From an uncultured archaeon (GTDB lineage: Archaea > Thermoproteota > Bathyarchaeia > Bathyarchaeales > Bathycorpusculaceae), in assembly GCA_963782915.1 (NCBI GenBank), contig CAWALK010000011.1, positions 96,001 through 160,000 on the forward strand: DNA of 64,000 nucleotides. The letters are read 5' to 3'. Each line of letters begins with the position of its first letter. The first letter of the stretch is position 1. The notes below the pieces were generated by a model. The model made no database searches and had not been told where the DNA came from. It was given only the letters and a program-made list of their open reading frames with translations. A program made the position numbers and the translations under genes. Below are positions 33,668 through 52,894 of this stretch, one piece after another.

Positions 33668-33780
33668 TAGATCCATTCGGCTTCGACTTCGCTGATCTGT
33701 TTGAAATGGGGATCATCTGTATGCAGACTGCACTTAGCGCCGATGAGGTAGCAGCGATCATGCTGTCACCCATCGATAGG
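33668..33780 (-). pseudogene. C-terminal remnant of a PIN toxin
   Basis: LSMGDSMIAATS...DDPHFKQI...WI directly after an AbrB gene; N-terminal two-thirds missing. Confidence 0.65.
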
Positions 33781-34543: not shown

Positions 34544-34815
34544 TACTCACGACCTTCAGCCACAAGTCTTGCTATACTTGCCCCTTTGAAGATCCTTGCG
34601 CCTATTTGCTCCAGCTCATCGTCAGTCAAATCGGGGGCGTTCCCAATCAAATCTTGAACTTTATCGCCTAAGAACAATTCAGGATGCTCTCTTAGGTAGG
34701 CTTCAGTAATTTTCCTTAGGGCTTCGCTTCTGCTCTTAAATAAACCCCTTGAGACTGCTTTGTCAACTTTCTTAACCACTATCTCGGGAAAACGAGACGT
34801 TATTATCTCTTCCAT
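34543..34815 (-). CDS. Ribbon-helix-helix antitoxin
   Basis: IITSRFPEIVVKKVDKAVSRGLFKSRSEALR. Confidence 0.82.
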   Translation of the reverse strand: MEEIITSRFPEIVVKKVDKAVSRGLFKSRSEALRKITEAYLREHPELFLGDKVQDLIGNAPDLTDDELEQIGARIFKGASIARLVAEGRE

Positions 34816-34955: not shown

Positions 34956-36427
34956 TTACGCTCTCGGGATTACTGCCAAGAATGGTTCTGGCTCCATGTT
35001 AGCGGTAGCATAAACCGCCAGTGCAATACTCCAAAATACGTCGTCGTGTGTACCTTGCGGATGATAGAAGCCAGTATTGCCGTCCCTGCGCAAATCAAAT
35101 CGTTCCACGTTGAGTTCAGTGCAGATATTCGCCTCTGTAAGGTCGTTCCCAGTGGAGCAGGGGATAGAAGAATTGCTTGTTTAGCATACGTTGCTTAAGC
35201 AACCCAGCCATCTCACTTTTGCGGGGCACACTAAAATTTACACCTTCAGCATTATTGATGCCGGCGTTTTCCATGTCGGCGATGAAGCTGGGACCCTCCC
35301 GTGTAAAATCTACCCGTATTTTCTCAAAGTCGCCCCAGCGGTCCTGCAACGCTTTAAGTAGCCTAAAACAGATGCGTATACCGTGGGTTGCTGGAAAATT
35401 TTTAGATGCCGCAAGTAGAGACGGTATCGTTTTGTTTTTCAACGACTGAGAGGACGCAATAGTCTCTGGTTTGCGCCAAATCCAAGCCCCGCAAAGAATT
35501 CACCGCTATGATTCAACCTCGGAGTCGAATAATCGCAGTTCTTCGCCGCAGCTTGTCTGAGTGCCGATGCAGGAAGCAATAAGGCTCTGGTTTAGCCAGA
35601 CATCGTCATCCTCAGCCCATTCGGCATCCATTTCACGGTGCCAACGTGATAGGTCATCGCCCATCTGAGTCTTAATCCGTTCGATAATGTTGGGTTTGAG
35701 TGGTCCGTTGGGGCTTAATGCTTTGGCGACTGGTACATGAGAGGTTTTGAAATCAGAGAAATCCTTATGGTTGAAAATTTTGAAGAACACGCTATCGGTG
35801 TGCCAGGGTGTGCTGCTGCAGACGAATTTGCCATCGGTTGTTCCCAGCGTGTAGAGGATGGCGTCGTAGAGTTCTTGGTCGTTTGCTACAAAGTTGAATT
35901 CGTCAGCATATACTACATGTAAGCGTGGGTCCTCGGATTGTTTCGGGGTTGTTTGGGAAAGCTTCAATGCTGCTTCCGTTAGCGAAGTAGATTTGGGTTC
36001 GTTGCGGCTTGAAAGCTAATCCCGGCGGGTAGATTATGGGTGAAGAATGCGATTATGCGATATGATTCGTTTGGTTTGCCGCCAAGAAGGCCCAACGATG
36101 CCGATTGCACTATTGGGGTGACTGACTGCGTACCAGAGCAGCAGGGCGCAGATTATGTAGGTTTTTCCGCTTTGCCGGCACCATCGGGCTGCGGTAAATT
36201 GGTTGTTTAGAAATAGTTGGGCGAAGTCTATTTGGTACTGGATATGGTTGAAAGCCTAAAATGCGCTCAAAAAAAGCGGAGGGGTCACTGCTGAATCCTA
36301 ATGTCTCCTGCTGAGTGGCTTGTATTAAGTGATTGTTGCTTTGCTGGAGATTATGCCATCGGGGCAGGATTTGGTTGGGTCGTAATGCCCTGGGTTCTTT
36401 CTGCTTTTTCCTTGAGTAGCTTCGCAT
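34956..36427 (-). CDS. terL: Terminase large subunit (several frameshifts; start uncertain)
   Basis: Stitched frames give PYQ, RWCRQSGKT (Walker A), VVYADEF (Walker B), SSTPW, nuclease GLDLAQTRDY, VDFT and HDDVFWSIALA. Confidence 0.88.
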
Positions 36428-36815
36428 TTTGTTCCTCCATTTCTTTTAGTTTGGTTTCGATTTGTCTGTAGTTGATGTAGTCGGTGAGAAGTTCTTTGTA
36501 GGTTTTAGCGATGGTTGCTATGGCTTGTAATCGTTGGACTTCGATTTTGTTTAGTCCTGGTTTAGCAGCGGTTTTTAGGGCGCCTGCAAGCATTTTTAGG
36601 GTTTCCTCGACGCTTGGCAGTTGTTTTGGGAGTGGGATGGAGGAGTCTACGTAGCCTTTTGTTTGGGGTTTTATGTCGAGGCGTTGGCATTTTATGATTA
36701 TGGCGGCGGGTGTTTTTTGGAGTTTGGCGGCTATTTCGTCTAGGCTTGTGTTTGCTTCTACGAGTTGTTTTAGTTCGGTTTCTTGTTGGGGGGTCCATTG
36801 TTTGCCTTTAGTCAT
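36351..36815 (-). CDS. Putative terminase small subunit (N-terminal HTH plus coiled coil)
   Basis: WTPQQETELKQL...LDEIAAKLQKTPAAI HTH; immediately upstream of and overlapping terL. Confidence 0.55.
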   Translation of the reverse strand: MTKGKQWTPQQETELKQLVEANTSLDEIAAKLQKTPAAIIIKCQRLDIKPQTKGYVDSSIPLPKQLPSVEETLKMLAGALKTAAKPGLNKIEVQRLQAIATIAKTYKELLTDYINYRQIETKLKEMEEQNAKLLKEKAERTQGITTQPNPAPMA

Positions 36816-36902: not shown

Positions 36903-37346
36903 ATGTTGGGCAATTCGATGAGAAAGTATGTTATGAGCGAAAATAAGAACGGTTACAGTAAAGCCGTGCAAGCCGTCTACAACACCCGAATCAAAAGCTA
37001 TGCAAAACAAGCCATCCAAGATTTAGCGCTACTGGCGGAAAAATTACCTGAAGACCAACAAGCCGACATCTTCAACAGCGAAAACATGAAGCCATTATTC
37101 AAAGCCATCCTAAAACCGGCTCCGGAAGAAATTACCCAACTAACTCAAAACAAAGAACTGGCAAAGAAGAAAAGAAACCGTTTACGCCCACTCACCTATG
37201 AAATAATTACTTTACTAAATGACTCAAACTTGTCATGGTTAATTGCACCCATAGGAGCCAGATATATGACAAAAGAAGGCGGATATTTAGCTCATTTAAA
37301 AGCGATTTATTACCGCAGCCTAGACGGCGGAGACGATGAAGAATAG
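36903..37346 (+). CDS. Hypothetical protein
   Basis: Open 147-aa helical ORF; no motif recognised. Confidence 0.55.
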   Translation: MLGNSMRKYVMSENKNGYSKAVQAVYNTRIKSYAKQAIQDLALLAEKLPEDQQADIFNSENMKPLFKAILKPAPEEITQLTQNKELAKKKRNRLRPLTYEIITLLNDSNLSWLIAPIGARYMTKEGGYLAHLKAIYYRSLDGGDDEE

Positions 37347-37906: not shown

Positions 37907-38122
37907 CTACTCGTCATTTGCCCCTTCGAATTCAGTGGGGTCTAAGCCTAAATTGGTTGCCCACTGTACATCTGCCAGGGCATCAACGAGTTTTCTTTGG
38001 GCATTCTTGTGCAGTCGGCTCACGGTTGGCGGATTAATGTTTAGTTTACGGGCTATTTTGTAATCGCTCAACCCTTGATTTGCCAACTCAAGAATCCGCC
38101 GTTCCCGATCAGTTAAAGCCAT
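37907..38122 (-). CDS. LuxR/sigma-region-4-like HTH regulator
   Basis: LTDRERRILELANQGLSDYKIARKLNINPPTVSR; divergent from the head operon. Confidence 0.8.
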   Translation of the reverse strand: MALTDRERRILELANQGLSDYKIARKLNINPPTVSRLHKNAQRKLVDALADVQWATNLGLDPTEFEGANDE

Positions 38123-38948
38123 GGCACCGCTTCCTTTTGGATATAAAGGTTATTACTACTTTTGGGCTAATAACCTATTTCCGCTTTCCCAGACATACCC
38201 ATTCCCGATTAACATGCCAGAGAAAGAAACCCAAAACCAAGCAAACCCATGCAGTCGAGGAGTAGAGCACCTCTTGACTGTTCTGCCCTTTAGTGTTCTG
38301 GAAAAAATGGCTGACAAACCTTTGAGGATTCGGGGCGTAGCCATGACGGCTGGTATGAGCCGCAATCTTAACATCTATACACCTGAAGAGCTGCAAGCTT
38401 TCACCGGCAAGCTGGTAAATGCGCCGGTCTATATTGAGCATGTTTCTGTACCAAACGCCATTGGGAAAGTTACCAAAACCGATTGGGACGGCCATAGTCT
38501 CTGGTATGAAGCGGAAATTTATGATGAGTCAATCGCTGAGAAGATACGTAAGGGTTTAGTCCAGCATGTGAGCGTGGGTGCAGATTATGAAGCCGTCGAT
38601 TTAGTGGATGGCAAGGTTCCTCATGGACTTCATAACGCCGAGTTAAGTTTAGTGGCCGTTCCTGGAATTCCGGAAACTAACGTGCAGGTTTTAGAGAAAC
38701 TCTCCCAAACAGAAGGCAGACTAACCGAGGCACAAAAGACCATTGAGGATTTACGCAAACAAGTCCCAGGAGGCGGTTTGCTAAAGAATCCACCAACGAT
38801 GATAGCGGTTTCTGAAGCTATCAAGATGGTTGAGGCAGTTCTGCCTTCGCCTATGATTCAAAGAAGTTGGAGTCTTGGGCCTCAACGCATGTGCCAAGAA
38901 CTCCGCAGAGTAGTCAAACAGCTAGAGCAGAAAGTAGGAGGCAGATAG
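38121..38948 (+). CDS. Prohead (capsid maturation) protease (start probably 38213)
   Basis: IRGVAMTAGMSRN..IYTPEEL, PVYIEH, IRKGLVQHVSVG, ELSLVAVPG. Confidence 0.85.
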   Translation: MAPLPFGYKGYYYFWANNLFPLSQTYPFPINMPEKETQNQANPCSRGVEHLLTVLPFSVLEKMADKPLRIRGVAMTAGMSRNLNIYTPEELQAFTGKLVNAPVYIEHVSVPNAIGKVTKTDWDGHSLWYEAEIYDESIAEKIRKGLVQHVSVGADYEAVDLVDGKVPHGLHNAELSLVAVPGIPETNVQVLEKLSQTEGRLTEAQKTIEDLRKQVPGGGLLKNPPTMIAVSEAIKMVEAVLPSPMIQRSWSLGPQRMCQELRRVVKQLEQKVGGR

Positions 38949-39032
38949 CTGTGTTTTTGCTCACTTTTGTGGGGAAGAGTACCAAAGGACGAACTTTGGG
39001 AAATTCAAGAAAAGAAATCGAATTGATATTAA

Positions 39033-39461
39033 ATGACTGATAAAACAGGCAAAACTTGGATGGCTGTAGGAGAAACCGACGATCCGCAAGCGCTCATAGA
39101 ATCTTTTGAAGCTGAAGCAGCAATCACCAAAGGCTCACCCGTCTATCTAAGCTCAGATGACAAGGTATCGACTAGCCCAGGCGGAGACGACGCCATAGGC
39201 GTAGCCGCCAAAACCGTTGCCATAGGCGAAATGTGCCCAGTGCTAAAACGTGGAAGAGTCAAAGTCAAAGCAAACGGAGCCATAACACGGGGCAAAGCAG
39301 TCTGCAGTGCTGCAAACGGCAAAGTTGCCCCATTAGTGGACCAACCGGTAGATGAAGGCGGAGCAGCAACCTACACAGTATTTTACAATCGCAAACTTGG
39401 AACCGCACTTGAATCAGCAATCGCAGACGGCGACTTGATCTTCATAGGTGTGGAGAAGTGA
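39033..39461 (+). CDS. Capsid cement/decoration protein (DUF2190-like)
   Basis: FEAEAAITKGSPV, AIGVA, GAITRGKAV, GTALESA..DGDLI; directly before the capsid gene. Confidence 0.7.
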   Translation: MTDKTGKTWMAVGETDDPQALIESFEAEAAITKGSPVYLSSDDKVSTSPGGDDAIGVAAKTVAIGEMCPVLKRGRVKVKANGAITRGKAVCSAANGKVAPLVDQPVDEGGAATYTVFYNRKLGTALESAIADGDLIFIGVEK

Positions 39462-40421
39462 TTGCATTGAAGCCAAGACTTTTTGAAGCATTGATGGAAA
39501 GACCTAACGACCAACGTGAAGTTTACGAGAAGCTAAAGCAGAAAACTGAGCATCCCTTCATGAAGCGCTATGTCGCCATGGGCATAAAAGAAAACCTCTT
39601 TAGCGATATGACAGGTGCGCTTGGCAGGATGCATGATACGCTTGTGCAGGCTGCGTTTCCTGAGTTGATTGGCAGAAACATCATCACAGTCATGCAAACC
39701 TCTGAAGCTACGGAGCGATTCCCACTTGACACTGATACAATTGCTTACCGTTACTCTGAAGGCACTATAACGAGGCTTAGTGGCAAAAAGAACTCAATGG
39801 TAGATATCTACACAAACGTGCTTGCGGATTCATCTGAGGAGTGGACTAGAGAGTTTCTTGAGGATGCAACCTGGAACGTCATGGATAACATGATTCAGAA
39901 GACTGGCAGAGCTTTAGGCATAAAGGAAACCGAAGAGATCATCGCGCTCTATGGTGCAATCCAGGATGCAGATCTGGCTGGCGGTGCTCCTATCGCTGGA
40001 GGAAACGCTGTGCTTAGCTGGACAGGGTTGCTTAGACTGCATGATGCCGTTAGAAGCGAGAACTGGCATCCTACTGTACCTAGCAATCAATGAGACCCAA
40101 CTCCATCAGTTGCTAAACGACGATAAGTTTGTTCACGCTCAGTATTTGCCGAGTAGTGAAACCGATATCCAGCAAGGCAGCATAGGCTCAGTGTTGGGTA
40201 TGCAGGTACAAGCTAGCACTTTGATTCCCAACGGGACAGCGTATGCAATTGACACTCGAGTTGCTTCTGCAATGCTTCTACGTCGTGACATTACAGTTGA
40301 AGACTGGGAAGACATAAAGACCGGCAAATACGGCGTTCGAGCAACCACACGGTTTGGAGCGGGTATTCTACGCGCTACAGCTGTTGCCAAAATGACCAAC
40401 ATCAAGACTACCCTAAGCTAA
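39458..40421 (+). CDS. HK97-fold major capsid protein (frameshift ~40078)
   Basis: WTREFLEDATWNVMD...GRALGIKETEEII, GSVLGMQVQASTLIPNGTAYAID, VRATTRFGAGILRATAVAKM. Confidence 0.85.
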
Positions 40422-40486
40422 AATGATCGTCAACGATCTAACCACTTTCCCTTTTTTTGGGTTAAAAATGTGAGGTTTATCCTGCT

Positions 40487-41722
40487 ATGAGCAAATTCAT
40501 CCGAAAAATCAGCGAAATCCTGTCCTTTACGCCTGCCTCCGGTGTGGCATCCCCTAAGCAGCGGGTGTTCTTTGACACTTCCTGCATACCCTTAGCAGAC
40601 GTCTTGAAACTCTACTACCGTGATCCCACCTGCAAGAGTAGTGTAGACTTGCTGGCAGCTTCAACGGTTGGCATGGGCTTCTACACTACAGCGGATAAAA
40701 AATACGACAAGGCATCCCAAGCTAAAGAGGTTGTCGACCGGTTCTGTGAGGATGTCAATCTCGATAGCTTGCTAAATGACATGGCAAAGCCGCTGATTGG
40801 TTGCGGAAACGATTTCTGGCTAAAACTCAACCCCGACAAACTAACTGACACTCTGCGCATGCCAATTGACGCCGTCCAACGGATAGGGCTAAGCTCTGTT
40901 CCCGACTTAAAGATTCCATATAAAGTCACAGGTTACCAGCTTCTAAGCACATATGGCGGCGATACTAGAGCCGAGCTTAAGCCCGAAGCTGTAATTCATT
41001 GGCGTTTAAACGGCGATGTCCCCTCCGGGTTTGGCGTTGGATTGTTGCAGGTTCTCCTGCATTCGTTAACCATTGACACTGACAAGCGTCCCTCGTATGC
41101 TTGGATGAAGGCCAAGATAGAGAAGATTTTGCCAAACATCTTCACTAAATATGCTGGTCCCGATGTCGTTGTGCAGCTTGAAGGGCAAAAAGAAGATACC
41201 ATCAAAAAATATGAAGCCGCGATTAAGAACCGACCGGAAGAGGGGCAGTGGCTTTTTAGCGGCGCCAAATCTGTCGGCGTCTACCCAGTAACCATTGACC
41301 CAAGGGCACGCTTCGAATATTATATCGACCACATGGTCAACCAATTTTACCTCGGATGCGAAACACCGCTTCCAAGGCTGTTTAGCACTCCAGGCTTCAC
41401 TGAAGCATCGGCAAGGGCAGCGCTCGATTTACAGGACATGCTCATTAAACCAGTCCAGCGGTACATCAAGCGCCAAGTTGAAAAAGAAATCTTCGCTTTC
41501 ATTGTAGCTCAAAATGGGCTCGATCCCACCAAAGCCAAAGTTAGGTTGAATTTTGGCAGTTCAGAAACACCCGAGTTAGTGGCCGCCGACATCATTAAAG
41601 CAGCTGAATTGGGGCTGATTCGTGCGGAGGAGTTCCGTAAGAACGCTGTCAAGTTCGGTTGGGAACTCTGGGATACCCAACCTGAAGCAGCAGTTCAAGG
41701 TAAGGAGGTAAAAAAGGAATGA
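40487..41722 (+). CDS. Portal protein
   Basis: 411 aa; LYYRDPTCKSSVD, LIGCGNDFW, LKPEAVIHWRLN..SGFGVGLL, IKPVQRYIKRQVEKEIF, VRLNF. Confidence 0.75.
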   Translation: MSKFIRKISEILSFTPASGVASPKQRVFFDTSCIPLADVLKLYYRDPTCKSSVDLLAASTVGMGFYTTADKKYDKASQAKEVVDRFCEDVNLDSLLNDMAKPLIGCGNDFWLKLNPDKLTDTLRMPIDAVQRIGLSSVPDLKIPYKVTGYQLLSTYGGDTRAELKPEAVIHWRLNGDVPSGFGVGLLQVLLHSLTIDTDKRPSYAWMKAKIEKILPNIFTKYAGPDVVVQLEGQKEDTIKKYEAAIKNRPEEGQWLFSGAKSVGVYPVTIDPRARFEYYIDHMVNQFYLGCETPLPRLFSTPGFTEASARAALDLQDMLIKPVQRYIKRQVEKEIFAFIVAQNGLDPTKAKVRLNFGSSETPELVAADIIKAAELGLIRAEEFRKNAVKFGWELWDTQPEAAVQGKEVKKE

Positions 41723-42066
41723 AGGTATCAGCGGAAGACGTTAGAGACACCCTCAACCTAAAAGATTCGGATATTTCTGAGGTTAAAGTTCTGAAGATGA
41801 TTAAGCGTGCCGAGGTCACTTTAGAGCTTGAACTCTCCGCTGATATTGACTACCAAAACTGCACCGATTCCCAAAAAGAAGCAATAACGCTCCTGGCTGC
41901 CATTTATGCAGTCTGCTACTTGGCTGGCGGTTCTGCTATCGGTTTGAACTTTAGCGTTGGTGACCTGACCAGTTCCAACTCAGCCTGGCCCAGCTTAACG
42001 GTGTTACAAAGCGAATTCGAGCGGGTCCTTGCCAGTCTCAAAGAAGTCTACGTGGGGAGCGTGTAG
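41719..42066 (+). CDS. Head-tail connector/adaptor (gp6/gp15-like)
   Basis: VSAEDVRDTLNL...MIKRAE, helical, FSVGDL hairpin; position after portal. Confidence 0.6.
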   Translation: MKVSAEDVRDTLNLKDSDISEVKVLKMIKRAEVTLELELSADIDYQNCTDSQKEAITLLAAIYAVCYLAGGSAIGLNFSVGDLTSSNSAWPSLTVLQSEFERVLASLKEVYVGSV

Positions 42067-42068
42067 CC

Positions 42069-43469
42069 ATGGGAACCGTTCCTGAAGCATATTTCCAATT
42101 CGTTATGGACTATGCGCCCTATGTCTATGTGATAGCGCCTAATACACCGGATCCAGCGTTTGGCAAAGGCGTCCTAGCAGCAAGCTTTGCCCTTGATTTT
42201 CTCTGTGAAGCGTATTCAGCCCCGCAGTTCAAAGATAGACAAGCAGACATCTATGAAAAAATCGAGAGCTTAGCCGATTGGGTACTAACCCAACAATGCA
42301 CTGATCCTGCAAAGAAGGCTTATGGCGGGTTCAAAAGCGCCGAGACCAGCACTTACTATTACAGTGTAGATGCTTGCAGAGCCATCCCATCACTTCTAAA
42401 AGCCTACGAACTCACAAAAGACAGTGAATACTTGGAGGCTGCAAAGCTAGCTGGCGGAACTTTCCTCAAAACCATGCAAGATAAGCAAACATACGGCGGC
42501 TTCGCTAGAGCAGTCACAATCCAAGATGCTTGGCTTTTGCAGATGGATATAGAATGCCTCTATGGACTCATTGGCTTAAACAGGCTAGCCAAAGGTTATC
42601 ATGAAGGTGATGAAGGTAAGGAATACGCATACGATCGTATGATGGATAGGGCAGCGTTTTTTCTTTGGCAAGGCTTTGAGAATCTTTGGCTAACTTTTGA
42701 CCCTTCAGATGGCAATTGGCACAGAGTGGGCTTAACTGAAAATGAGGTTTACGATGACCCGTTCGCCTACGCCTTGCTGGGACTGTATGAGTTTGAAGGC
42801 TGGAGTGTCAGCTGCCAAAAAGTCTACAACGCCCTAAACAACATCAGAGCTAGCGGAAAGTATCCAGCTTATGACCCTGCAATTTGCTGGGCTGGTTACA
42901 TAGATGTGCTTAATCGATTCTCAGCTTGCGACTACTACGACGCCGTCACAAGCGGGATCCTTTGGAAAATCCGCCAAAACCACGACAAGCCAAGCTTTAA
43001 ACTCAGTGTAGAAGTCATCGGCAAACATGCAGCTGAATTCATGTATTGGGGCGCCAAACACACAGACTACAGCTATGTTGAAAATAAGCAGGCAATGGCG
43101 ACCGTTTGCTGGTTAGCCGAGCTTTTCCTACATTACGAGGAGCCTGTAACTCAGTTTACAAAGATTCTGATGAGTAAAGGGGAAACGGTGACGCTCTATT
43201 CTGTTCGAGAAGCCGCTGCAACAGTCACTTATGGCGAACCGTTGGATTTGTTAGCCGTTGTTTCCTCACTCAAAGCTGAGCAAGTCATGTTAGAAGCTGG
43301 CTACTACCTGAACGACTACTTGGCGTTCTATACGTTTCTCCCAGTTAGGGTTCATGACAAACTTAGGCGTCAAGGCGAAGACTACGAAATCCAAACAGTA
43401 ACGCCCTTCACGTTTGCGAATCAACGGTTCTACTTCAAAAGCATCGCAAGGAGGCTAATCGCAAGTTGA
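42069..43469 (+). CDS. Alpha/alpha-toroid enzyme-like domain fused to a putative head-closure domain
   Basis: Repeats LADWVLTQQ...YGGF and FLKTMQ...YGGF, LLKAYELTKDSEYLEAAK; C-terminal ~105 aa VTLY...RVHDKLRRQGEDYEIQTV resembles head-closure proteins. Confidence 0.55.
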   Translation: MGTVPEAYFQFVMDYAPYVYVIAPNTPDPAFGKGVLAASFALDFLCEAYSAPQFKDRQADIYEKIESLADWVLTQQCTDPAKKAYGGFKSAETSTYYYSVDACRAIPSLLKAYELTKDSEYLEAAKLAGGTFLKTMQDKQTYGGFARAVTIQDAWLLQMDIECLYGLIGLNRLAKGYHEGDEGKEYAYDRMMDRAAFFLWQGFENLWLTFDPSDGNWHRVGLTENEVYDDPFAYALLGLYEFEGWSVSCQKVYNALNNIRASGKYPAYDPAICWAGYIDVLNRFSACDYYDAVTSGILWKIRQNHDKPSFKLSVEVIGKHAAEFMYWGAKHTDYSYVENKQAMATVCWLAELFLHYEEPVTQFTKILMSKGETVTLYSVREAAATVTYGEPLDLLAVVSSLKAEQVMLEAGYYLNDYLAFYTFLPVRVHDKLRRQGEDYEIQTVTPFTFANQRFYFKSIARRLIAS

Positions 43470-44484
43470 GCGAAGTAGAGAACCCAGTCATAACAATTCT
43501 GCGCCTAATCGAGTCACGGATAAGAGTCGTCAAAGATGACGGCGGCTTAGCCAGTGTCCTTTGTTCTCAAGCGAACTATGACCGGGAACTGCTCAAAGAC
43601 TACGATGCCCAAATAACCGTGTCCAAGACCTCTGAGCCTTGCCAAGCGCAGAAACACACCTTAGACGGCAAACTAAGAAGACGCATCTACTCCCTTCGGG
43701 CAACCATAGTAACCATTGACAAGCCATTTGCAGGTGCAGACGTCGGCAGAGTCATGCGAGACAAAGTGCTTGAGCAGCTACTGTTGATTATTCCCGAAAA
43801 CCGCAACCTACCCTACAGGACATTCTACAACTTTTACCCGATTGACTCAACGTCTGCAACTCACAAAGCCTATAGTGCAGTTGCCGCAACCGAGCCTGAG
43901 CCATCTAACTCAGCTTGGACAGAACTGTCAAATCCTGAGTATGCGAACCTTTGGGGAAGCGATGACCTTAGAACCTCTAAAAGCGCAACTGGCAATGGCG
44001 AGTTTGCGTTTATGCTATTCCGCTTCAAAATAGGCTCTAAAGCTGGAGAGAGCCGAAATGAACCCAGAAAACAGTGCTTAAAGCGCGTAATTTTGGCGTT
44101 TGAAGGTTTTGGGCTTGCACCACAGGGAAACGGCGTTACCCTAAAAGTATGGGATAACTTAGCCAGTGCTTGGAGCAATCCACAAACCGGCGTTTTGCGG
44201 AACAGACGAAACCCTCACTATCACTCTAACGTCAAACCTCACGAACTACGTCAACGATGACGGCTTCCTATACCTGATGGCACGAACAACCAACCCCTCA
44301 GATGGGGTTTCGTCTGCCGTTTTGTACTGCGATTTTGTCCAAGCAACCGTTGACGTATGGGGCATAACATTTTGCGACGTTCACAGTTTCCGAGACGTCG
44401 ATGTAGTTGATGTTAAGCCGTTTCTCTACAAAGAAGAAATCGTCATTGCTGGCTTGGCTCTTCGAGTCAGTTGCCATTTCCTAG
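43466..44484 (+). CDS. Putative tail terminator with inserted beta-sandwich domain (frameshifts ~44195 and ~44450)
   Basis: Position before tail tube; stitched from 43466..44260 and 44166..44612. Confidence 0.5.
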
Positions 44485-44500
44485 TCACAGGTGAAACAAT

Positions 44501-45365
44501 ATGGTGGACACCTATCACTCAGACCAAGAAAAATTCTACTACGTTACCGAAGGCTCTTTCGGCGTGGTTCCAGCTAGCCCGGCAATGCTTGGGCACTCCT
44601 GCAGCAATCTAGAACCTGACATAAACCCAAACAACATCCGAGTACCTGGCACAGGCTCAATTGATGTGGTCGCACTTAAGCGTGGATTAAGACAGCCACT
44701 TCTGAAAGTCAAGTACCCCATCCCATCGGATGCACCTATCAACTTTCTCCAGTACGTCAAACAAGAACTCAACGTCAGCCTTTCCCTGCAAGTGCTCTAC
44801 TACAAAGACCAATTCGCCTTCGCCACCGACATCATAAGCCTACTCTACAAGGGCGCCCGATTCAACAAAGCAACCCTAACATGCGACATAGACGGCCTCT
44901 TGGAGTGCGAAGCCGAGTTTCCAGCCCAAGATATAGAAGTCTACAACAGCCAAAATTACAGGCGCTTCATACTCCGAATATGCCGGCGCTGTTTCAGGCA
45001 GTGAAAGCTATGTCAAAATCGGCGGCGTAACTTGCGAGCGTGTTACTTCTTGGAAGCTGCAGATTGACAACTCCTGCAAAGCTGTCCCGGTCATAAGGTC
45101 TGTTAATGGGCATTTGGCGAAGTATCTCACTTGGGGTAAGCGGCTACTGACTGGAGAACTCAACTTTGAGTTTGAGAGCAAACAAGAAGCCGACGACATC
45201 TTAGCCGACACCGAGCAATCCAGCTTAGAATTCGGGTTAGGCGGCGTCAACAAAGTTAGCGTTGAGCATACCAAATGGGATGACTTTTCATTAAGCGGCA
45301 AATCCGAGGACCTGATCTACGCAAAGGTTCCTTTCACAGCCAGAGGACCGCTCAGCATTTTATAG
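44501..45365 (+). CDS. Major tail tube protein (frameshift ~44940)
   Basis: YVTEGSFGVVPASP N-terminus, beta-rich, VTSWKLQIDNS, GKRLLTGELNFEFES. Confidence 0.75.
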
Positions 45366-45383
45366 TTACGGAGAAATCAAGAG

Positions 45384-45913
45384 TTGAAAACAGAAAAAGT
45401 TGAGATTGATGGCAGATTCGGCGAAGAATACAGGGGCACCTATACCTTTGCTGAGATAACGTGGGCTAAACGAAACCGCATCATCCAAAAACACACCAAA
45501 TACAACAAGCTATCCGGCGACGTTGAAAGCAGCGATTTCATAGCCATACAAGCGGAAACCATTATGGCTAGCATGCATGGCCAACCCCAAAGCCACCCCA
45601 TAACGCTGGAAAAGCTGCTGGGCGAAGAAGACGGTATTCCGATTGAGCTTGGGGAACTTTTCTCTAAAGTAGTCAACAAGCTAAACGGCATGCCACGGGA
45701 GGATTTGCGTTTTTTACTAGAGCAGTTAGACGAGGAAAGCCGCACAGCGCTCTTGTCGAGTTTAGGCTATGTCAAACCTTCGGCTGGACCCCAACCCAAC
45801 TTGCAAAGCAGCCAGCCCGAACAATCCAGGAGTTCTGCCACATCTTGAACGTGATGGACGAAATGGCTGAGGAAGAAAAGCGAAAAGCGGAGCGTGAAGC
45901 AAAACGGCAGTAG
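45384..45913 (+). CDS. Tail assembly chaperone pair G (45384..45848) and GT (to 45913 via -1 frameshift)
   Basis: In-frame slippery T TTT TTA at 45710-45716; -1 frame reads FTRAVRRGKPHSALVEFRLCQTFGWTPTQLAKQP...EAKRQ*. Confidence 0.75.
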
Positions 45914-45957
45914 AAGTAACCTGCGACATCCAAGGCGTAGAAGAATTCAAAGCAGCT

Positions 45958-46272
45958 ATGCAAAGGTTTGATTCAGGCATGCAGCGTGAGGTTCATAGCT
46001 TTTTGGCTAGCTGGGCTGCCGACGTCAAAGCTGAAGCCATGCGCCTTGTTCCAGTCCGCACAGGTTATCTTCGAAGCACAATCTATGCGAAGGTTCAGCA
46101 GTGGGTCGTAGAAGTTGGAGCAGATGCTGCTTATGCACTATTGGTTGAGTTGGGTACTAAATACATGCAGGCGCATCCTTACCTATATCCAGCAATCCAA
46201 GAATACCTGCCCCAACTGGAAACAGTAGTTATAGCAGCCATTGAGCAAGCCAAAGCGGAGGCTGGTCTATGA
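45958..46272 (+). CDS. HK97 gp10-like tail completion protein
   Basis: AMRLVPVRTGYLRSTI, YALLVELGTKYMQAHPYLYPA. Confidence 0.85.
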   Translation: MQRFDSGMQREVHSFLASWAADVKAEAMRLVPVRTGYLRSTIYAKVQQWVVEVGADAAYALLVELGTKYMQAHPYLYPAIQEYLPQLETVVIAAIEQAKAEAGL

Positions 46273-46853
46273 GTTTTCGAGAAATAGCTCTGACCATCCG
46301 TGCGGTTAACCGTGCAAGCACCGAATTTAACAGAATCCAAACCGACGCTGAAGCACTTGCAGCACGGGTCAAAAGTTTAGGCTCAACTCTAGCTGGCTTG
46401 GGCGCTACAGGTACCGCTATTGGTTATGTCGCCAACCAGTTTGGAATACTGAACGATGCCGAAATGAAGGTTTTCAACTCAACCATGATGGTTGTCTCAG
46501 TCATGGGTATGTTCCTGCGCACAAGCACAGGTTTAGCCGTGGCTCAAAAGGTTTATTCTGCAGCTTGTTGGGTAGCAACTGCAGCTCAAAATGCATTAAA
46601 CATCAGCTACGGAACCTTCCTCGCACTAACAGGAGTCGGAATCGCCGTCATTGTCGCGGCTACCGCTGCCATGGTGTATTTTGCCAGCAGCATGAACAAT
46701 GCTACGGCTAGCGTGCAGAACTTTAACTCGACAGCAGCTGAGACGCCTGCACATACGCGAGGTATTCAACGGGCGGGCGAATCAGCAGTGACTTCTGGTT
46801 CTCGTAGCGGTAGTTCATCAGATGCTTCTTTCTATCGCAGAGGAGTGGAATAG
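46269..46853 (+). CDS. Short tape measure protein
   Basis: EIALTIRAVNRASTEF N-terminus typical of tape measures; Ala/Gly-rich amphipathic and hydrophobic helices (AAQNALN, LTGVGIAVIVAA); position before hub. Confidence 0.65.
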   Translation: MSFREIALTIRAVNRASTEFNRIQTDAEALAARVKSLGSTLAGLGATGTAIGYVANQFGILNDAEMKVFNSTMMVVSVMGMFLRTSTGLAVAQKVYSAACWVATAAQNALNISYGTFLALTGVGIAVIVAATAAMVYFASSMNNATASVQNFNSTAAETPAHTRGIQRAGESAVTSGSRSGSSSDASFYRRGVE

Positions 46854-48458
46854 ATGAGCGTTAATCCGCCGGCTATATCGATTGCTTTGGGTTCTGTTGC
46901 GGTTCCCCAATCTGACGTTATAGAAGCCACTGTGCATTTGGGTGCCACTAAAGAGGTTAGCAGCTGGGAGCTTCGACTTCAAAACTGGAATAGTAAATAC
47001 AGCCCAAACGGCACCTATCCGCTCAATGTAGGCCAAGACGGCTACATCTGCATAGGCAGAGACACCAGCGTACCTCAACTCATCACTACAAGAACCGAGA
47101 GTATCAAGTTTCAATCAAGACCTGCAGAGCACTATGTTATTGTGGCTGGGCGATGTTGGGGCGAGAAGCTCTTTCGGCAAACAGTCACTAAAGACTATTC
47201 AGGTTCCAAAGGCGAAGACATAGTCAAGGATATCTTGGATTCTTTTTCAGGACTAAGCCATTTACGTGGCAGCACTGAACTGGTTGAGAACACAGATACA
47301 ACTTTCACCGACTTCAAAGTGCAAGATACTCAAGTTTGGGATATATTGCAAAAAATCGCCCAAGAAAGCGACAAAAATGGCGCCATTGGCTATGACTTTC
47401 GTACAGCACCGGAGGGTAAATTCGAGTTTTTCCCAAGAGCAACCAAAACCAGCCCCGTTACCCTCACAGACAAGATAGAATCCTATGAGTACTGGAAAGA
47501 AATAATTGCCCTCAGAAACAAAGTCACAATCTTCGGAGCCCAAGACAAAAGCGCACCCTTAAACAAAGTTGACTGGACACAAAGCCTAACCCCAACCATA
47601 TGTAGTTGGTCAGCAACCGCAGGCGAAATCAGCATTGAAAACTCAATGGGCAGCCCCAACAGCATAAAACTACACGTAGAAAACAACTACTTCGGCGGCG
47701 CCCTCTTCACTTTAAACCCAACCTATTGGGTTAACACCAACATGTTTCCTGAACTGCACTTTGCCATCCAAAAAGAAACCTACTTCGACGGCCACTCCAT
47801 GGTCATCTTGTTCGATACCTCCAACCGCGCAGCTAGCCGCCTCTATAGTTTTCAATCGCCCGGTAACGGTGGTATAGCTAATCAGTGGACAAGTGAAACA
47901 TTCAAAGTTGGCGCTCTGAATGCTTCAGATTGGTCGGTTGAAGCTGGTTTCGATTGGTCACAGGTAAATCGAGTTGGCTTTTACTGCTATCCAAGTCAGG
48001 TGACAGGTTCAGGTAGCTTTTGGATTGATAAATTCTACTTTGGCGGCTTACGCTACAGCAGTATCCAGCAAGATGCGGCTAGCCAGGCATCTTATGGGCT
48101 TAGGGAGTTTATGGATGTTGATGAAGAGCTTTGGAGTGACATCGAATGCTCACTTAGAGCACGAGCCATTCTAGCCAATATGAAGGATCCGTTTGAATAC
48201 ATCGCACTCAAGAGCACCGTTATCGATTACGGGGTTACACCATTTTTTGCAGCTGATATTGTAGCTATTGCTCTTCCAAATGAGAATGTAAGTGGAAATT
48301 TTCGTATTCTAAGCGCCGAATACCACGTCAAAGCCGAAAGTGGGGAACTAGAAGTTTCATTGGAACTTGGACGTGAGAAGTCGCTTTTGGCAGATTATGT
48401 GTACGCTTTGCGGTCCAAGGTGGATCGTGTTAACAGGTACAAGGTTGCGAGGTTATAG
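46854..48458 (+). CDS. Tail hub/baseplate protein with inserted carbohydrate-binding-like domain
   Basis: WDILQKIAQ..GYDF....GKFEFF, NKVTIFG, SQASYGLRE; insertion ending FDWSQVNRVGF...GSFWIDKFYF. Confidence 0.65.
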   Translation: MSVNPPAISIALGSVAVPQSDVIEATVHLGATKEVSSWELRLQNWNSKYSPNGTYPLNVGQDGYICIGRDTSVPQLITTRTESIKFQSRPAEHYVIVAGRCWGEKLFRQTVTKDYSGSKGEDIVKDILDSFSGLSHLRGSTELVENTDTTFTDFKVQDTQVWDILQKIAQESDKNGAIGYDFRTAPEGKFEFFPRATKTSPVTLTDKIESYEYWKEIIALRNKVTIFGAQDKSAPLNKVDWTQSLTPTICSWSATAGEISIENSMGSPNSIKLHVENNYFGGALFTLNPTYWVNTNMFPELHFAIQKETYFDGHSMVILFDTSNRAASRLYSFQSPGNGGIANQWTSETFKVGALNASDWSVEAGFDWSQVNRVGFYCYPSQVTGSGSFWIDKFYFGGLRYSSIQQDAASQASYGLREFMDVDEELWSDIECSLRARAILANMKDPFEYIALKSTVIDYGVTPFFAADIVAIALPNENVSGNFRILSAEYHVKAESGELEVSLELGREKSLLADYVYALRSKVDRVNRYKVARL

Positions 48459-48462
48459 AACG

Positions 48463-48876
48463 ATGAGTAAACAAATCCTAAAACTATTAGAAAACATAAA
48501 ACCCGGCGATCTAATCGCCATCGACTGGTGCGACGCTTCAGTAGGCAAAAGCAGCGGCTCAGGCATGACCATAGATGTCCCAGTGAAAAGTTGGGGCATA
48601 TTCGTCGGTTTAATCGGCGATAGGGTTAAGCATATTGTGATTGCTCAGAACAGTTTCCGCTATGCCGACGGCATGTTCGATTTAGACTACACCGCCATCC
48701 CTATCGGTTGGGCGTTGGGCGTTACAGTTTTAGTCAAAGAGCATATTCCCACCGAATCAGCTAGCAGACTTGTTAACAGTTTCATGATGGGCGGACATCG
48801 TTCAATGAATCGCTCCAGAACTTTTCGGAGAGCACTTGCACAGCGGAGGTTGAGCATAGATGGCAGACACTATTAA
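48463..48876 (+). CDS. Small virus-type hypothetical protein (possible Sm-like fold)
   Basis: LIAIDWCDAS...SWGIFVG...HIVIAQ...TAIPIGW pattern. Confidence 0.6.
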   Translation: MSKQILKLLENIKPGDLIAIDWCDASVGKSSGSGMTIDVPVKSWGIFVGLIGDRVKHIVIAQNSFRYADGMFDLDYTAIPIGWALGVTVLVKEHIPTESASRLVNSFMMGGHRSMNRSRTFRRALAQRRLSIDGRHY

Positions 48877-49102
48877 GCGCGCTTTGACTAGAAGGCGCTT
48901 TGAGAGGGGCCGTCTCATCGTTGAGGAACCCACTGCTAAGCTTGTGTTGGGTGTAAAATTTGCCATCGGCATGACTGCGTTCATGTCAGCCCTTGAGTTG
49001 GCGCACTTAATCATTTTACATTCGTGGAATGCTGAAATCTTCGCTTCTATCACCGGACTGAGCGGTACAGTCATTGGGTTGTTTGTGGGGCAAAAAACAT
49101 GA
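48860..49102 (+). CDS. Two-TM holin-like membrane protein
   Basis: 80 aa, basic N-terminus, two hydrophobic helices, end of tail operon. Confidence 0.5.
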   Translation: MADTIKRALTRRRFERGRLIVEEPTAKLVLGVKFAIGMTAFMSALELAHLIILHSWNAEIFASITGLSGTVIGLFVGQKT

Positions 49103-49176
49103 TGAAAAGTAATCCATGGCGGGTAGAGGATGAGAAGATGGAGCCTGAATTAGGTCTAAGAGTTATTCCAAGGTGA
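49099..49176 (+). pseudogene. terS::terL deletion-scar mini-ORF
   Basis: MMKSNPWRVEDEK|MEPELGLRVIPR* matches the putative TerS start (MTKGKQWTPQQET) and the TerL end (MEPEPFLAVIPRA*). Confidence 0.65.
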
Positions 49177-50673
49177 CAAAAATGACCAGAAGACGAAATG
49201 AACCCTTCCGCATAACCCAGTTCCGAAGAATCTACAACAGAGAAGAAGGAAAATTTACCTTCAACATAAGCTATGAAACCCACACCAAAATAACGCCTAG
49301 GAGCCTTGTTGTGGCTGAAGCGTTTGGGTTAGGCATCGATGAAGCCCAGCGGTTCAAGGTTTTGGATGCTGAACTAAAGATTGGACCCAAAGACATAACG
49401 TATATCACAGGGGATTCGGGAAGCGGAAAATCCGTTTTGCTGCGGGCAATCAGGGCAGATTTAGGCGATGAAGCCATTGATTTGACAGAGGTTGCAGTGG
49501 ACCCGGACAAGCCTTTAATTGAAACTGTCGGCGCCACCGTCGAGCAAGCCTTAGAACTCCTGAGTAAGGTAGGCTTAAACGATGCTTTCCTGTTTTTACG
49601 CTCTTACAGCCAACTCAGCGACGGACAAAAATACCGCTACAGAATCGCCAAAATGATTGAAAGTAAAGCCAAATTTTTTCTGTGCGATGAATTTTGTGCT
49701 TGCCTTGATCGAGACACTGCCAAAATAATCGCCTACAATCTGCAGAAAATCGCACGGCAGCAGGGCAAAGCAGTCATAGCTGCCACAACCCACAGCGACT
49801 TACAAGAAGACCTTAAACCCAGCGTACTTGTGCGTAAGCGGTTTGGCGAAGAAATCCACATCGACTACTACCCAAACACCCCAGCAGCCGAATGCAGCTT
49901 AACCAAAGAAATGAAAATAGAGCCGGGAACAAAGGAAGACTGGAAAAAACTAAGCCCTTTCCACTATAGAGGCCATGGCATTTCGGTCCCTCGAAAAATA
50001 TTCAAAATGACAAGGGGTGATGAGCTCTGCGGCGTCATCGTCTATACTTACCCGCCTCCAGCATGCTACGGACGACGACTTGTGCTACCAAGAATGACAA
50101 TGCAAGAAATCAACCAAAAACTAAGCACAATAAACCGCATAGTAATTCACCCCAAATACAGAACTATAGGTCTCGGAGAGAAAATAATCCGTGAAACGCT
50201 TCCGCAAGTCGGCACACCAAACGTTGAGTTGATGGCTGTAATGGCAAAATATTCACCTTTTGCCGAGAAAGCAGGGATGCAAAGAGTGGTTGAACAGCAG
50301 TCAGTTGAAAGTGTTAAAACTTTAACGCAGACACTTCTAGCGGCTGGGATTCAATTTGCAGCTTCTTGGCAGTCAGCACTATGTAGAATCAAAACTCCAA
50401 AACCTAACTGAGGAACAAATAATGGAACTCAAGACTGCCTTTATGGCAAACAAGCATCCACGATTCAAAAAAGAGGTAGCCAGCAGACCGACATAACCCA
50501 TATGGAAAAACATCCGATTACCTGACATACGTGCAAAACGGCTGACAACTCGAGAATTGGCAGGTTGATTAAGATTCTTGCAATGCTATCCCAAACAAAA
50601 GTTTACCTGTTTTGGAAAAATGATAACGGATACGAACTGTCAAGAGACGTGAGTAAGGACTAAAAATTAATTG
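49173..50673 (+). CDS. ABC-ATPase / GNAT acetyltransferase fusion (frameshifts in the 3' part)
   Basis: GDSGSGKS, LSDGQ, FLCDEF, TTH; GNAT motif A INRIVIHPKYRTIGLG. Confidence 0.85.
50222..50615 (+). repeat. ~390 bp direct repeat, copy 1 (3' end of the ABC-GNAT gene)
   Basis: Aligns with 52495-52885 with scattered substitutions. Confidence 0.92.
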
Positions 50674-52494: not shown

Positions 52495-52894
52495 CGTTGA
52501 ATTGATCGCTGTAATGGCAAAATATTCGCCCTTTGCCGAGAAAGCAGGTATGCAAAGAGTTGTTGAACAGCAGTCAGTTGAAAGCGTTAAAACTTTAACG
52601 CAGACACTCCAGCGGCTCGGATTCAATTTACAGCTTCTTGGCAGTCAGCGCTATGTAGAATCAAAACTCCAAAACCTGACTGAGGAACAAATAAAGGAAC
52701 TCAAGACTGCCTTTATGGCAAACAAGCATCCGCGCTTCAAAAAAGAAGTAGCCAGCAACCGACATACCCCATATGGAAAAACATCCGATTACCTGACATA
52801 TGTGCAAAACGCTGACATCTTGAGAATTGGCAGGTTGATTAAGATTCTTTCGATGTTGTCGCAAACAAAGGTTTACCTGTTTTGGCAGCAATAA
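52495..52894 (+). pseudogene. Duplicated 3' fragment of the ABC-GNAT gene (repeat copy 2)
   Basis: VELIAVMAKYSPFAEKAGMQ...LSQTKVYLFWQQ* with intact frame and no 5' part. Confidence 0.88.

What the first reader, a model, noticed from the sequence alone, without database searches (positions are those of the whole stretch)
49099..49176. 25-codon scar suggests terS-terL was deleted here and is supplied by an inverted copy 12 kb away
Seen: a mini-ORF coupled at both ends (ATGA overlap with the holin-like gene, GTGA overlap with ABC-GNAT) reads MMKSNPWRVEDEK-MEPELGLRVIPR*. The first half aligns with the start of the putative TerS at 36815 (M.K...W....E). The second half matches the TerL C-terminus at 34956 (MEPEPFLAVIPRA*, 9 of 12 identical). 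Inference: the ancestral order was holin-terS-terL-ABC/GNAT, and an in-frame deletion removed the packaging genes while keeping translational coupling. A diverged terS-terL now sits on the opposite strand with separate control. Swapping and decoupling the terminase is the kind of step that could change packaging specificity from self to host DNA.
Basis: partly seen in the sequence, partly recalled or inferred. Interest (0 to 1): 0.75.

Follow-up and report, generated by a model that had tools for sequence, protein, structure and literature searches.

The report
Terminase deletion scar in archaeal provirus
The 25-codon reading frame is a real leftover of a 1.8-kb deletion that removed the DNA-packaging genes from a decaying tailed provirus of a Bathyarchaeia archaeon, and the nearby inverted packaging genes are a separate, conserved chromosomal module that is itself broken in this genome.

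Summary
Observation confirmed. The ORF at 49099-49176 fuses the first 12-13 codons of terS to the last 12-13 codons of terL. In 63 of 82 related loci, and in 32 of the 33 closest, terS-terL lies between the small membrane ("holin-like") gene and the ABC-ATPase gene. Three same-family genomes align to the window in two blocks that are 1786 bp apart in them. This puts the junction at 49135|49136.

A 151-nt contig from another soil metagenome spans the same junction. A third sample carries an in-frame variant that is 12 nt longer.

The second half of the reading is only partly supported. The inverted terS-terL at 34956-36815 is not the relocated cassette. It belongs to a three-gene module (terL, terS, divergent 147-aa gene) found in at least 7 other genomes, mostly without head-tail genes beside it. 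It sits in the same host neighbourhood, is under strong purifying selection, and was not found in IMG/VR. In this genome its terL carries 9 frame-breaking indels.

The element also lacks the integrase and left-end genes, and its ABC gene is frameshifted at the 3' end. The best reading is a decaying provirus. One orthologous locus (G213) combines an intact module terL with a cassette-less head-tail cluster, so functional replacement is not excluded.

The parts
48860..49102 (+). 80-aa small membrane protein ('holin-like' by position only). Its stop overlaps the scar's ATG.
   Evidence: It has homologues in 84 of 138 related loci. In close relatives its stop overlaps the terS start as ATGA. No Pfam or PHROG hit.
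49099..49135 (+). terS-derived half of the scar (codons 1-12 plus the first base of codon 13)
   Evidence: blastn block 1 (hol plus terS start) ends at query 275/276, which is window 49134/49135, in three relatives. It is 7-8/13 identical to canonical TerS N-termini.
49136..49176 (+). terL-derived half of the scar (the last 12 codons plus the stop). It carries GGTGA just upstream of the ABC start.
   Evidence: blastn block 2 starts at query 277, which is window 49136. It is 9/12 identical to canonical TerL C-termini, median 9 over 43 loci. DNA comparison.
49182..50411 (+). ABC-ATPase gene (ABC-GNAT in an earlier scan note), truncated here. The last ~70 codons are out of frame.
   Evidence: Pfam ABC_tran, and no GNAT hit at E<=0.01. 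81 of 95 relatives' ORFs are 481-496 aa, against 409-412 here. Copy 2 of the 3' end at 52496-52885 keeps the frame.
38121..48876 (+). Head-tail module (protease-like, scaffold/decoration, putative capsid, neck, tail genes). All ORFs are full length against relatives.
   Evidence: Pfam and PHROG hits. Colinear with relatives over the full query lengths.
36351..36815 (-). terS of the chromosomal module, open (154 aa)
   Evidence: It is 67-78% identical to module terS in G213, G228, G274, G283, G311 and G267.
34956..36430 (-). terL of the chromosomal module, broken by 9 small indels (about 36239, 36054, 36030, 35923, 35514, 35483, 35427, 35358, 35127)
   Evidence: tblastn reads it in alternating frames. 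DNA alignment with 4 intact orthologues shows eight insertions (seven of 1 nt, one of 2 nt) and one 1-nt deletion. The sites are not in long homopolymers.
36903..37346 (+). 147-aa conserved all-helical gene, divergent from terS. It is the third gene of the module.
   Evidence: 64-89% identical homologues in 10 other genomes of the family. Alignment A2. Divergent terS-terL lies beside it in 7 other loci. No Pfam or PHROG hit. The AlphaFold model has mean pLDDT 60.
50222..50615 (+). First copy of a ~390-nt direct repeat (ABC 3' end plus downstream). The second copy is at 52495-52885. The two copies flank the AAA_14/DUF4143 gene 50675-51970 (-).
   Evidence: the repeat finder D1, D2, D3 and D5, 88-96% identical, spacing 2270-2273. 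Pfam. G213 lacks the insert.

Best explanation
The mini-ORF is a deletion scar.

What happened. A tailed (Caudoviricetes-type) provirus of a Bathyarchaeia archaeon once carried the operon: small membrane gene, terS, terL, ABC-ATPase. An illegitimate deletion of about 1786 bp, with 2-3 nt of shared bases at the junction, removed everything from terS codon 13/14 to 13 codons before the terL stop. Both retained ends are the tightly packed gene boundaries: ATGA between the membrane gene and terS, and the terL stop with GGTGA just before the ABC start. The remnant therefore still looks translationally coupled. That the fusion is in frame is probably luck (one chance in three).

State of the element. 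It is a decaying remnant. It has no integrase, and none of the two conserved left-end genes of its relatives. Its ABC gene is frameshifted near the 3' end and followed by an inserted cargo gene.

The inverted terS-terL. The copy 12 kb away is not the relocated cassette. It is part of a separate three-gene chromosomal module (terL, terS, divergent 147-aa gene) that other species keep at the same host locus. In this genome its terL is a pseudogene.

Shown versus inferred. Shown: the scar, the ancestral order, the module's distribution, and the breaks as assembled. Inferred: the order of events, and that the peptide has no function of its own.
For: Scar and ancestral order:
- 63 of 82 colinear related loci, and 32 of the 33 closest, carry terS-terL in this slot.
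- Three same-family genomes align to 48860-49400 in two blocks of 75-84% identity that are 1786 bp apart in them. The junction is at 49135|49136.
- The scar halves match canonical TerS starts (up to 8/13) and TerL ends (9/12).

Not a misassembly:
- A 151-nt contig of run X4 covers 49018-49168 without a gap (5 mismatches).
- A contig of run X3 covers 49059-49194 with a 12-nt insertion behind 49135.

Decay of the element:
- The ABC ORF is 409-412 aa, against 481-496 aa in 81 of 95 relatives.
- The integrase and the 319-aa and 183-aa left-end genes of canonical contigs have no match on this contig.
- The genome holds a second, frameshifted head-tail copy on C18 and scattered terS, terL and ABC fragments.

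The module:
- terL(-) terS(-) | 147-aa gene(+) is found in G213 (two contigs), G283, G228, G274, G222, G311 and G267.
- In G274 it sits between a GT2 glycosyltransferase and UDP-glucose dehydrogenase.
- G228 and G274 share the window's host neighbourhood: prefoldin, eIF6, S19e, rmlABCD, flippase.
- No head-tail genes were found in the fetched right flanks (6-29 kb) of five module loci: G213:C6, G228, G274, G311 and G267.
- The window's terL fragment nests with module terLs (90% identical to G274) inside a 20-row clade (support 99) that has no IMG/VR row.
- terL has 9 frame-breaking indels.
Against: - All head-tail ORFs (about 10.8 kb) are open and full length. This is unexpected for long neutral decay.
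- The scar occurs in two other samples at roughly 3-6% divergence over 136-151 nt, so the terminase-less form has persisted.
- The orthologous locus in G213 pairs an intact module terL (484-490 aa) with a head-tail cluster whose membrane gene is fused directly onto the ABC start. This is what redundancy-driven loss would predict.
- Module terLs are under strong purifying selection (dN/dS 0.02-0.11 in the 6 of 15 pairs where dS was finite).
- The terL breaks are mostly 1-nt insertions outside homopolymers. Several host sugar genes in the window are also frameshifted against G274 and G228. Assembly error therefore cannot be excluded, and no run holding the source reads was found.
Confidence: 0.78

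Rival explanations
1. Functional replacement. The head-tail cluster uses the neighbouring inverted terS-terL module as its terminase. Its own cassette became redundant and was lost. The system is a split packaging unit under separate control.
For: - G213:C2 has the same layout with an intact module terL and a different, clean hol-ABC junction.
- The window's flanks are closer to cassette-bearing loci (membrane gene 95-97.5%, ABC 91%) than to G213 (91% and 81%). This hints at two separate deletions.
- Module terL dN/dS is 0.02-0.11.
- Head-tail ORFs are intact.
- An IMG/VR contig (L136) carries the lysis-terminase block inverted upstream of the tail genes. Five more loci go straight from the tail gene to ABC.
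- No canonical contig with a left flank carries the module (0 of 54).
Against: - terL has 9 frameshifting indels here.
- The module stands without head-tail genes in the fetched flanks of five loci. G274, G228 and G311 have head-tail clusters elsewhere with 13-25 kb between the capsid and ABC genes, which leaves room for their own cassette.
- The G000 and G213 loci are orthologous, and G213:C6 is a 95.6% identical variant of the C2 locus. The pairing has therefore effectively been seen once.
- The element lacks an integrase, and its ABC gene is truncated.
Confidence: 0.15
2. Recombination product rather than a simple deletion. The terL end is a 'displaced 3' end' of the kind left when related viruses exchange modules at conserved gene boundaries. 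The scar then marks a cassette-exchange event that went wrong.
For: - terL C-terminal relics are common. The window has two more (9504-9578 and 22075-22137, minus strand).
- The genus search lists many hits confined to the C-terminal part of TerL.
- Two unrelated cassette types (TerL 481 aa and 529 aa) occupy the same slot between the same conserved ends.
- A displaced ABC 3' end lies behind inserted cargo.
- Earlier scan note e1-5233930.
Against: - Both flanks are colinear with single relatives, with only the 1786 bp missing.
- The terS start is retained as well.
- No cargo lies between the two halves.
- The junction shares only 2-3 bases.
Confidence: 0.05
3. Assembly artefact, or a genuine conserved small gene.
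For: The assembly contains many single-base frame breaks.
Against: - Independent contigs from two other samples span the junction.
- 0 of 200 other family genomes has the stretch contiguous.
- 0 hits for junction patterns in IMG/VR and JGI metagenome contigs, so it is not a conserved gene.
Confidence: 0.02

Closest known systems
Cryptic or defective prophages that have lost packaging genes by deletion (recalled examples: E. coli K-12 cryptic prophages, Bacillus subtilis PBSX and skin)
   Same: An integrated tailed virus with partial gene loss. Structural genes are still open and other modules are deleted or frameshifted. There is no integrase.
   Different: Here the deletion endpoints can be read to the base. 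They leave an in-frame fusion of the terS start and the terL end that keeps both operon boundaries. The host is an uncultured archaeon.
Illegitimate-recombination and moron-accretion model of tailed-phage mosaicism (Hendrix and co-workers; recalled, and named in earlier scan note e1-5233931)
   Same: Junctions at gene boundaries with a few bases of microhomology. Alternative cassettes sit in one slot. Leftover gene ends lie behind inserted cargo.
   Different: This junction removes an essential module rather than adding or swapping one.
Gene transfer agents with dispersed loci (RcGTA type; recalled)
   Same: A head-tail cluster without its own replication or integration genes. Terminase genes are kept in the host chromosome under purifying selection.
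   Different: No evidence of particles or of host-DNA packaging. The terminase next to this cluster is broken. The module occurs without a terminase-less head-tail cluster in other genomes.
Head-tailed Bathyarchaeia viruses ('Fuxiviridae', 'Kunpengviridae'; PMC10848311, passages read)
   Same: Caudoviricetes-type viruses of the same host class, with an HK97-like capsid, portal, large terminase and tail genes. One of them encodes an integrase.
   Different: The passages read mention no ABC gene or acetyltransferase (0 occurrences of either term) and no chromosomal terminase module. Relatedness to those families was not tested here.

Membership tests
Deletion scar (remnant of terS-terL) | Relatives carry the full genes between the same two flanking genes | tested here: met
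   63 of 82 colinear loci, and 32 of 33 close ones.
Deletion scar (remnant of terS-terL) | Both flanks align continuously up to one junction, with only the intervening DNA missing | tested here: met
   Two blastn blocks meet at 49135|49136. They are 1786 bp apart in G176:C9, G176:C1 and G152:C11.
Deletion scar (remnant of terS-terL) | The junction is real in DNA and not an assembly join | tested here: inconclusive
   Contigs of two other samples span it. The source reads were not available.
Large terminase subunit (Terminase_6N / Terminase_6C type) | N-terminal ATPase and C-terminal RNase H-like nuclease in one open frame | tested here: not met
   The window's minus-strand copy gives only a weak Terminase_6N hit on one fragment (E 9e-4, below the cut-off) and is split by 9 indels. 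Intact relatives reach the Terminase_6N cut-off, and one of them also gives a sub-threshold Terminase_6C hit. PHROG phrog_2.
Complete integrated provirus | Integrase, attachment repeats, replication or regulation genes, and packaging genes present | tested here: not met
   No match on this contig to the integrase or to the 319-aa and 183-aa left-end genes of canonical contigs. No tRNA in the window. terS-terL deleted.
Gene transfer agent | Terminase-competent head-tail cluster maintained by the host that packages host DNA | not testable with these tools
   Indirect only. Module terL is under purifying selection in other species, but it is broken here. There are no particle or packaging data.
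Phage satellite (PICI-like) | Small island with its own integrase and regulators that redirects a helper's packaging | tested here: not met
   In G274 the module is three genes between host sugar genes, with no integrase.
ABC-ATPase + GNAT predicted DNA-acylation system (Iyer, Aravind and co-workers; recalled, via note e1-5233929) | ABC ATPase domain fused to a GNAT acetyltransferase domain | tested here: inconclusive
   ABC_tran found. No GNAT family at E<=0.01 in Pfam. The C-terminal end is frameshifted.

The most novel reading that the evidence does not exclude
The terL-terS-147-aa-gene unit is a host-retained DNA-packaging module. It is kept at one chromosomal locus across Bathyarchaeia species and genera, is under strong purifying selection, and was not found in viral catalogues. 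Head-tail proviruses that come to lie beside it lose their own terminase: with a scar in this genome and a clean junction in G213. Together they would form a split, helper-dependent or GTA-like packaging system in an archaeal lineage where none is known.
Probability: 0.12. Interest if true: 0.8.

Novelty: new member of a known kind. Interest (0 to 1): 0.4.

Why it matters
The scar gives a base-resolved example of how an archaeal provirus loses its packaging genes. This is useful as a calibration point, but biologically it is ordinary provirus decay.

The less ordinary by-product is the free-standing terS-terL module, plus a second orphan terS-terL next to UbiD. Both are conserved at fixed chromosomal sites in several Bathyarchaeia species with intact, constrained terminase genes. 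If these serve the host or a dependent element, they would be the first hint of domesticated packaging machinery in this abundant, uncultured archaeal class.

Tried and rejected
- Junction searches. An exact pattern in IMG/VR, a hol-end to terL-end gapped pattern in JGI metagenome contigs and in IMG/VR, and a degenerate EDEKMEPE pattern in JGI contigs all gave 0 hits.
- Sequencing runs. 7 runs from 3 studies each hold only 0.05-0.11 of the sampled words. No RNA holder is listed. The source reads were not found, so the junction and the terL indels could not be checked in raw reads.
- Homopolymer test of the terL frameshifts. The sites are not in long runs, and run density equals that of the head-tail module. 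This does not settle error versus decay.
- ORF-coverage proxy for assembly quality: 0.69-0.77 per contig, uninformative.
- The IQ-TREE run of the terL tree did not finish in 288 s. The FastTree result was used instead, so support values are SH-like only.
- The 147-aa gene. No Pfam or PHROG hit, no usable ESM Atlas hit, and an AlphaFold model of mean pLDDT 60 that was too weak for a fold search, so none was run.
- Rejected: that the C12 or C13 orphan cassettes are the excised DNA. Both keep complete terS starts and terL ends.
- Rejected: that the distant clade without terL between the membrane gene and ABC (18 of 49 loci) carries similar scars. Their intergenic DNA shows no terL end.

Full report
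THE OBSERVATION

Window 49099-49176 (+) is a 25-codon ORF, MMKSNPWRVEDEKMEPELGLRVIPR*. Its ATG overlaps the stop of the 80-aa ORF 48860-49102 (ATGA). Its stop overlaps a GTG at 49173.

A six-frame scan of the whole window (127,930 positions) finds one non-self match of 8 or more to the last 12 residues. That match is 9/12, at the end of the minus-strand terL (34962-34997). The next best is 7/12.

The first 13 residues match the minus-strand terS start at only 4/13. 217 window positions score that well or better, so that part is not significant by itself.

WHAT RELATIVES SHOW

The ABC-ATPase protein downstream of the scar has 78 related loci in genomes, almost all Bathyarchaeia MAGs and often several per genome, and 60 in IMG/VR.

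Mapping the window's genes onto these 138 loci gives 82 loci (78 distinct stretches) where the small membrane gene and the ABC gene are colinear.
- 63 of the 82 have terS-terL between the two genes, about 1.72-2.1 kb in most.
- Among the 33 whose membrane gene is at least 80% identical to the window's, 32 have it. The exception is L008.
- In the close relatives the membrane gene's stop overlaps the terS start (ATGA).
- In the two cassettes read in full the terL start overlaps the end of terS.
- In the close relatives terL ends ...MEPEPFL(T/A)VIPR* on AGGTGA, and the ABC gene starts at an ATG 5-10 nt later.

The ABC gene of the window therefore most likely starts at ATG 49182, not at the GTG.

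Two unrelated cassette types occupy the same slot between the same conserved ends. One has TerS of 152 aa and TerL of 481 aa. The other has TerS of 111 aa and TerL of 529 aa.

THE JUNCTION

blastn of window 48860-49400 against three genomes of the same family (G176:C9, G176:C1, G152:C11) gives two blocks each time.
- Block 1: query 1-275/276, the membrane gene plus the first 12-13 terS codons, 80-81% identity.
- Block 2: query 277-538, the last 13 terL codons plus ABC, 75-84% identity.
- The two blocks lie 1786 bp apart in the relatives.

The junction is at 49135|49136, and at most 2-3 bases are shared between the two sides.

The scar's N-half is 7-8/13 identical to canonical TerS starts. Its C-half is 9/12 identical to canonical TerL ends (43 loci scored). 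The 78 nt are up to 61/78 identical to the joined termini, about as diverged as the flanking gene.

IS IT AN ARTEFACT, AND IS IT SHARED?

None of 200 other genomes of the family has the stretch contiguous. Junction patterns found nothing in IMG/VR or JGI metagenome contigs. The source reads were not found.

Logan contigs of other samples do cross the junction.
- A 151-nt contig of run X4 (soil) covers 49018-49168 without a gap, with 5 mismatches.
- A 151-nt contig of run X3 covers 49059-49194 with a 12-nt insertion directly behind 49135 and two 1-nt insertions in the spacer before the ABC start.

The 12-nt variant keeps the frame. By my reading of the inserted letters, it retains about two more terS codons and one more terL codon. 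It is either an independent deletion or the precursor of the window's scar. Both contigs are single, low-depth and short.

THE REST OF THE ELEMENT

From 38121 to 48876 the window has a head-tail module: protease-like, scaffold/decoration, putative capsid, neck, and tail genes. Its ORFs are all full length against relatives.

The element is nevertheless incomplete.
- Canonical IMG/VR contigs carry, left of the head genes, a conserved pair of 319-aa and 183-aa genes, variable cargo, and in one case an integrase. None of these has a match on the window's contig.
- The ABC ORF is 409-412 aa, against 481-496 aa in 81 of 95 relatives. Its last ~70 codons are out of frame. A second copy of the ABC 3' end (52496-52885, behind an inserted AAA_14/DUF4143 gene) keeps the frame.
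- The genome also holds a second head-tail copy with frameshifts (C18), a lone terS (C19), and terL and ABC fragments on several contigs.

THE INVERTED terS-terL

terS (36351-36815, minus strand) is open.

terL (34956-36430, minus strand) is read by tblastn in alternating frames. A DNA alignment with four intact orthologues shows nine frame-breaking indels: eight insertions (seven of 1 nt, one of 2 nt) and one 1-nt deletion. It also shows an in-frame 9-nt insertion. The sites are not long homopolymers.

Several host sugar genes in the window (rmlD, rmlC, a flippase, UDP-glucose dehydrogenase, an epimerase) are also frameshifted against G274 and G228. The head-tail module has no such breaks. 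I put about 0.7 on the terL breaks being real. Only reads can decide.

This terS-terL is not a moved copy of the deleted cassette. It sits divergently from a conserved 147-aa gene (36903-37346).
- The same three-gene unit occurs in G213 (two contigs, which are 95.6% identical variants of one locus), G283, G228, G274, G222, G311 (another genus) and G267. A truncated form occurs in G270.
- In G274 the unit lies between a GT2 glycosyltransferase and UDP-glucose dehydrogenase.
- G228 and G274 share the window's host neighbourhood: prefoldin, eIF6, L31e, S19e, Rpr2, rmlABCD, flippase. G213 shares part of it.
- In five module loci whose fetched right flank reached 6-29 kb, no head-tail gene follows.
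- In a FastTree of 105 distinct TerLs plus one 137-aa in-frame fragment of the window's copy, that fragment groups with module TerLs (90% identical to G274). It lies inside a 20-row clade (support 99) made only of genome rows, most from this genus. Canonical cassettes, including all IMG/VR rows but one sister, lie elsewhere.
- Module terLs have dN/dS of 0.02-0.11 in the 6 of 15 pairs where dS was finite. dS is saturated in the rest.
- The 147-aa gene has no close relative in IMG/VR and only one weak hit with a profile.
- In more distant genomes a 38-43% identical homologue precedes terS on the same strand. The gene is therefore linked to packaging genes in two orientations.

G213:C2, the contig of L008, is the orthologous locus. 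Its layout is: module with intact terL (484-490 aa), the 147-aa gene (89% identical), 9.7 kb of other DNA, then the head-tail genes. The membrane gene's ATGA is fused directly onto the ABC start, with no scar.

The window's flanks are closer to cassette-bearing loci than to G213, and the two ABC 5' ends are different alleles. This suggests two separate deletions beside the same module.

None of the 54 loci that hold the left end of canonical elements has the module.

An IMG/VR contig (L136) has the whole lysis-terminase block inverted upstream of the tail genes. Five further loci go from the tail gene straight to ABC. Inverted or displaced terminase blocks are therefore tolerated in this virus group.

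Against this, G213's head-tail genes are themselves split in six places. The pairing has effectively been seen at one locus. G274, G228 and G311 have head-tail clusters elsewhere with room for their own cassette.

VERDICT

The scar and the ancestral order are established. The most economical reading is a decaying provirus in which loss of terS-terL is one lesion among several. It lies next to a conserved chromosomal terminase module that is broken in this genome.

Functional replacement by the module remains possible (about 0.15). A switch to packaging host DNA has no support.

LITERATURE

For PMC10848311 (Bathyarchaeia viruses) I saw the search listing, the start of the abstract and the passages returned for five terms. 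They describe head-tailed 'Fuxiviridae' and 'Kunpengviridae'. They contain no occurrence of 'ABC' or 'acetyltransferase' and only one occurrence of 'terminase'. The other papers were seen as listings only.

The ABC-GNAT DNA-acylation prediction (Iyer, Aravind and co-workers), the GTA, PBSX and PICI comparisons and the Hendrix model are recalled or taken from earlier scan notes, not read here. I ran no search aimed at chromosomal orphan terminase modules in archaea, so I make no claim that they are not in print.

Noticed in passing
G000:C12:230332-232444 (locus L238/L242): An intact orphan terS-terL (TerL 492 aa) plus a short ABC fragment sits between host UbiD/AcnX genes and a GHMP kinase. terS-terL next to UbiD is also found in G212 and G219 (UbiD 81-89% identical, TerL 73-74%, dN/dS 0.07 for one pair).
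   Followed up: partly
G000:C13:4339-6401 (locus L239): A second intact orphan terS-terL (TerL 486 aa) lies between an MNT/HepT toxin-antitoxin pair and a predicted pPIWI-associated nuclease. G210 has a near-identical copy (terS 96%).
   Followed up: partly
window 9504-9578 (-) and 22075-22137 (-): Two more relics of the TerL C-terminus (13/25 and 11/22 identical to a canonical TerL end) lie among host genes. The genus-wide search also lists many hits confined to the C-terminal part of TerL.
   Followed up: partly
window 50222-50615 and 52495-52885: A ~390-nt direct repeat (88-96% identical) of the ABC 3' end and downstream DNA flanks an inserted AAA_14/DUF4143 ATPase gene (50675-51970, minus strand). 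The second copy keeps the ABC reading frame and the first does not. G213 lacks the insert.
   Followed up: partly
window 12184-13135, 14090-14591, 16125-17688, 25867-27198, 28194-29180: The host polysaccharide genes rmlD, rmlC, a flippase, UDP-glucose dehydrogenase and an epimerase are each split by one to three frameshifts relative to G274 and G228. rmlA and rmlB are intact. This is either a decaying sugar island or local consensus errors.
   Followed up: partly
L136:276-2610 (IMG/VR contig): The whole block (169-aa gene, membrane gene, terS, terL) is inverted and placed upstream of the tail genes, and the tail gene runs straight into ABC. L032, L108, L116, L117 and L135 also go from the tail gene directly to ABC.
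   Followed up: no
L115 and L200 (IMG/VR contigs): The head genes are followed directly by the 169-aa gene, the membrane gene and terL (then ABC in L115; L200's contig ends inside terL). The tail block is absent between them.
   Followed up: no
G222:C105:7789-9648 (locus L274): The module terL is one 624-aa open frame with about 140 extra residues inserted after TerL residue ~178. This may be an intein or an inserted domain.
   Followed up: no
L289, L290, L291 (G197, G257, G324): Distant homologues (38-43% identical) of the 147-aa module gene lie directly upstream of terS on the same strand. The gene family is thus linked to packaging genes in both orientations.
   Followed up: no
window 32891-34815 (-): Two PIN-domain genes with small upstream partners (VapBC-like pairs) lie directly downstream of the broken terL. 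They are absent from the module loci of G274 and G228.
   Followed up: no
L027, L028, L033, L035, L060, L088, L101 and others: A more distant clade (membrane gene about 60% identical) has only 97-823 bp, with no terL trace, between the membrane gene and ABC. A conserved basic leader (..LTRVRKKLAERKVNGECRIARR..) precedes the ABC body in several of these loci (for example L027, L028, L030, L033, L088).
   Followed up: partly
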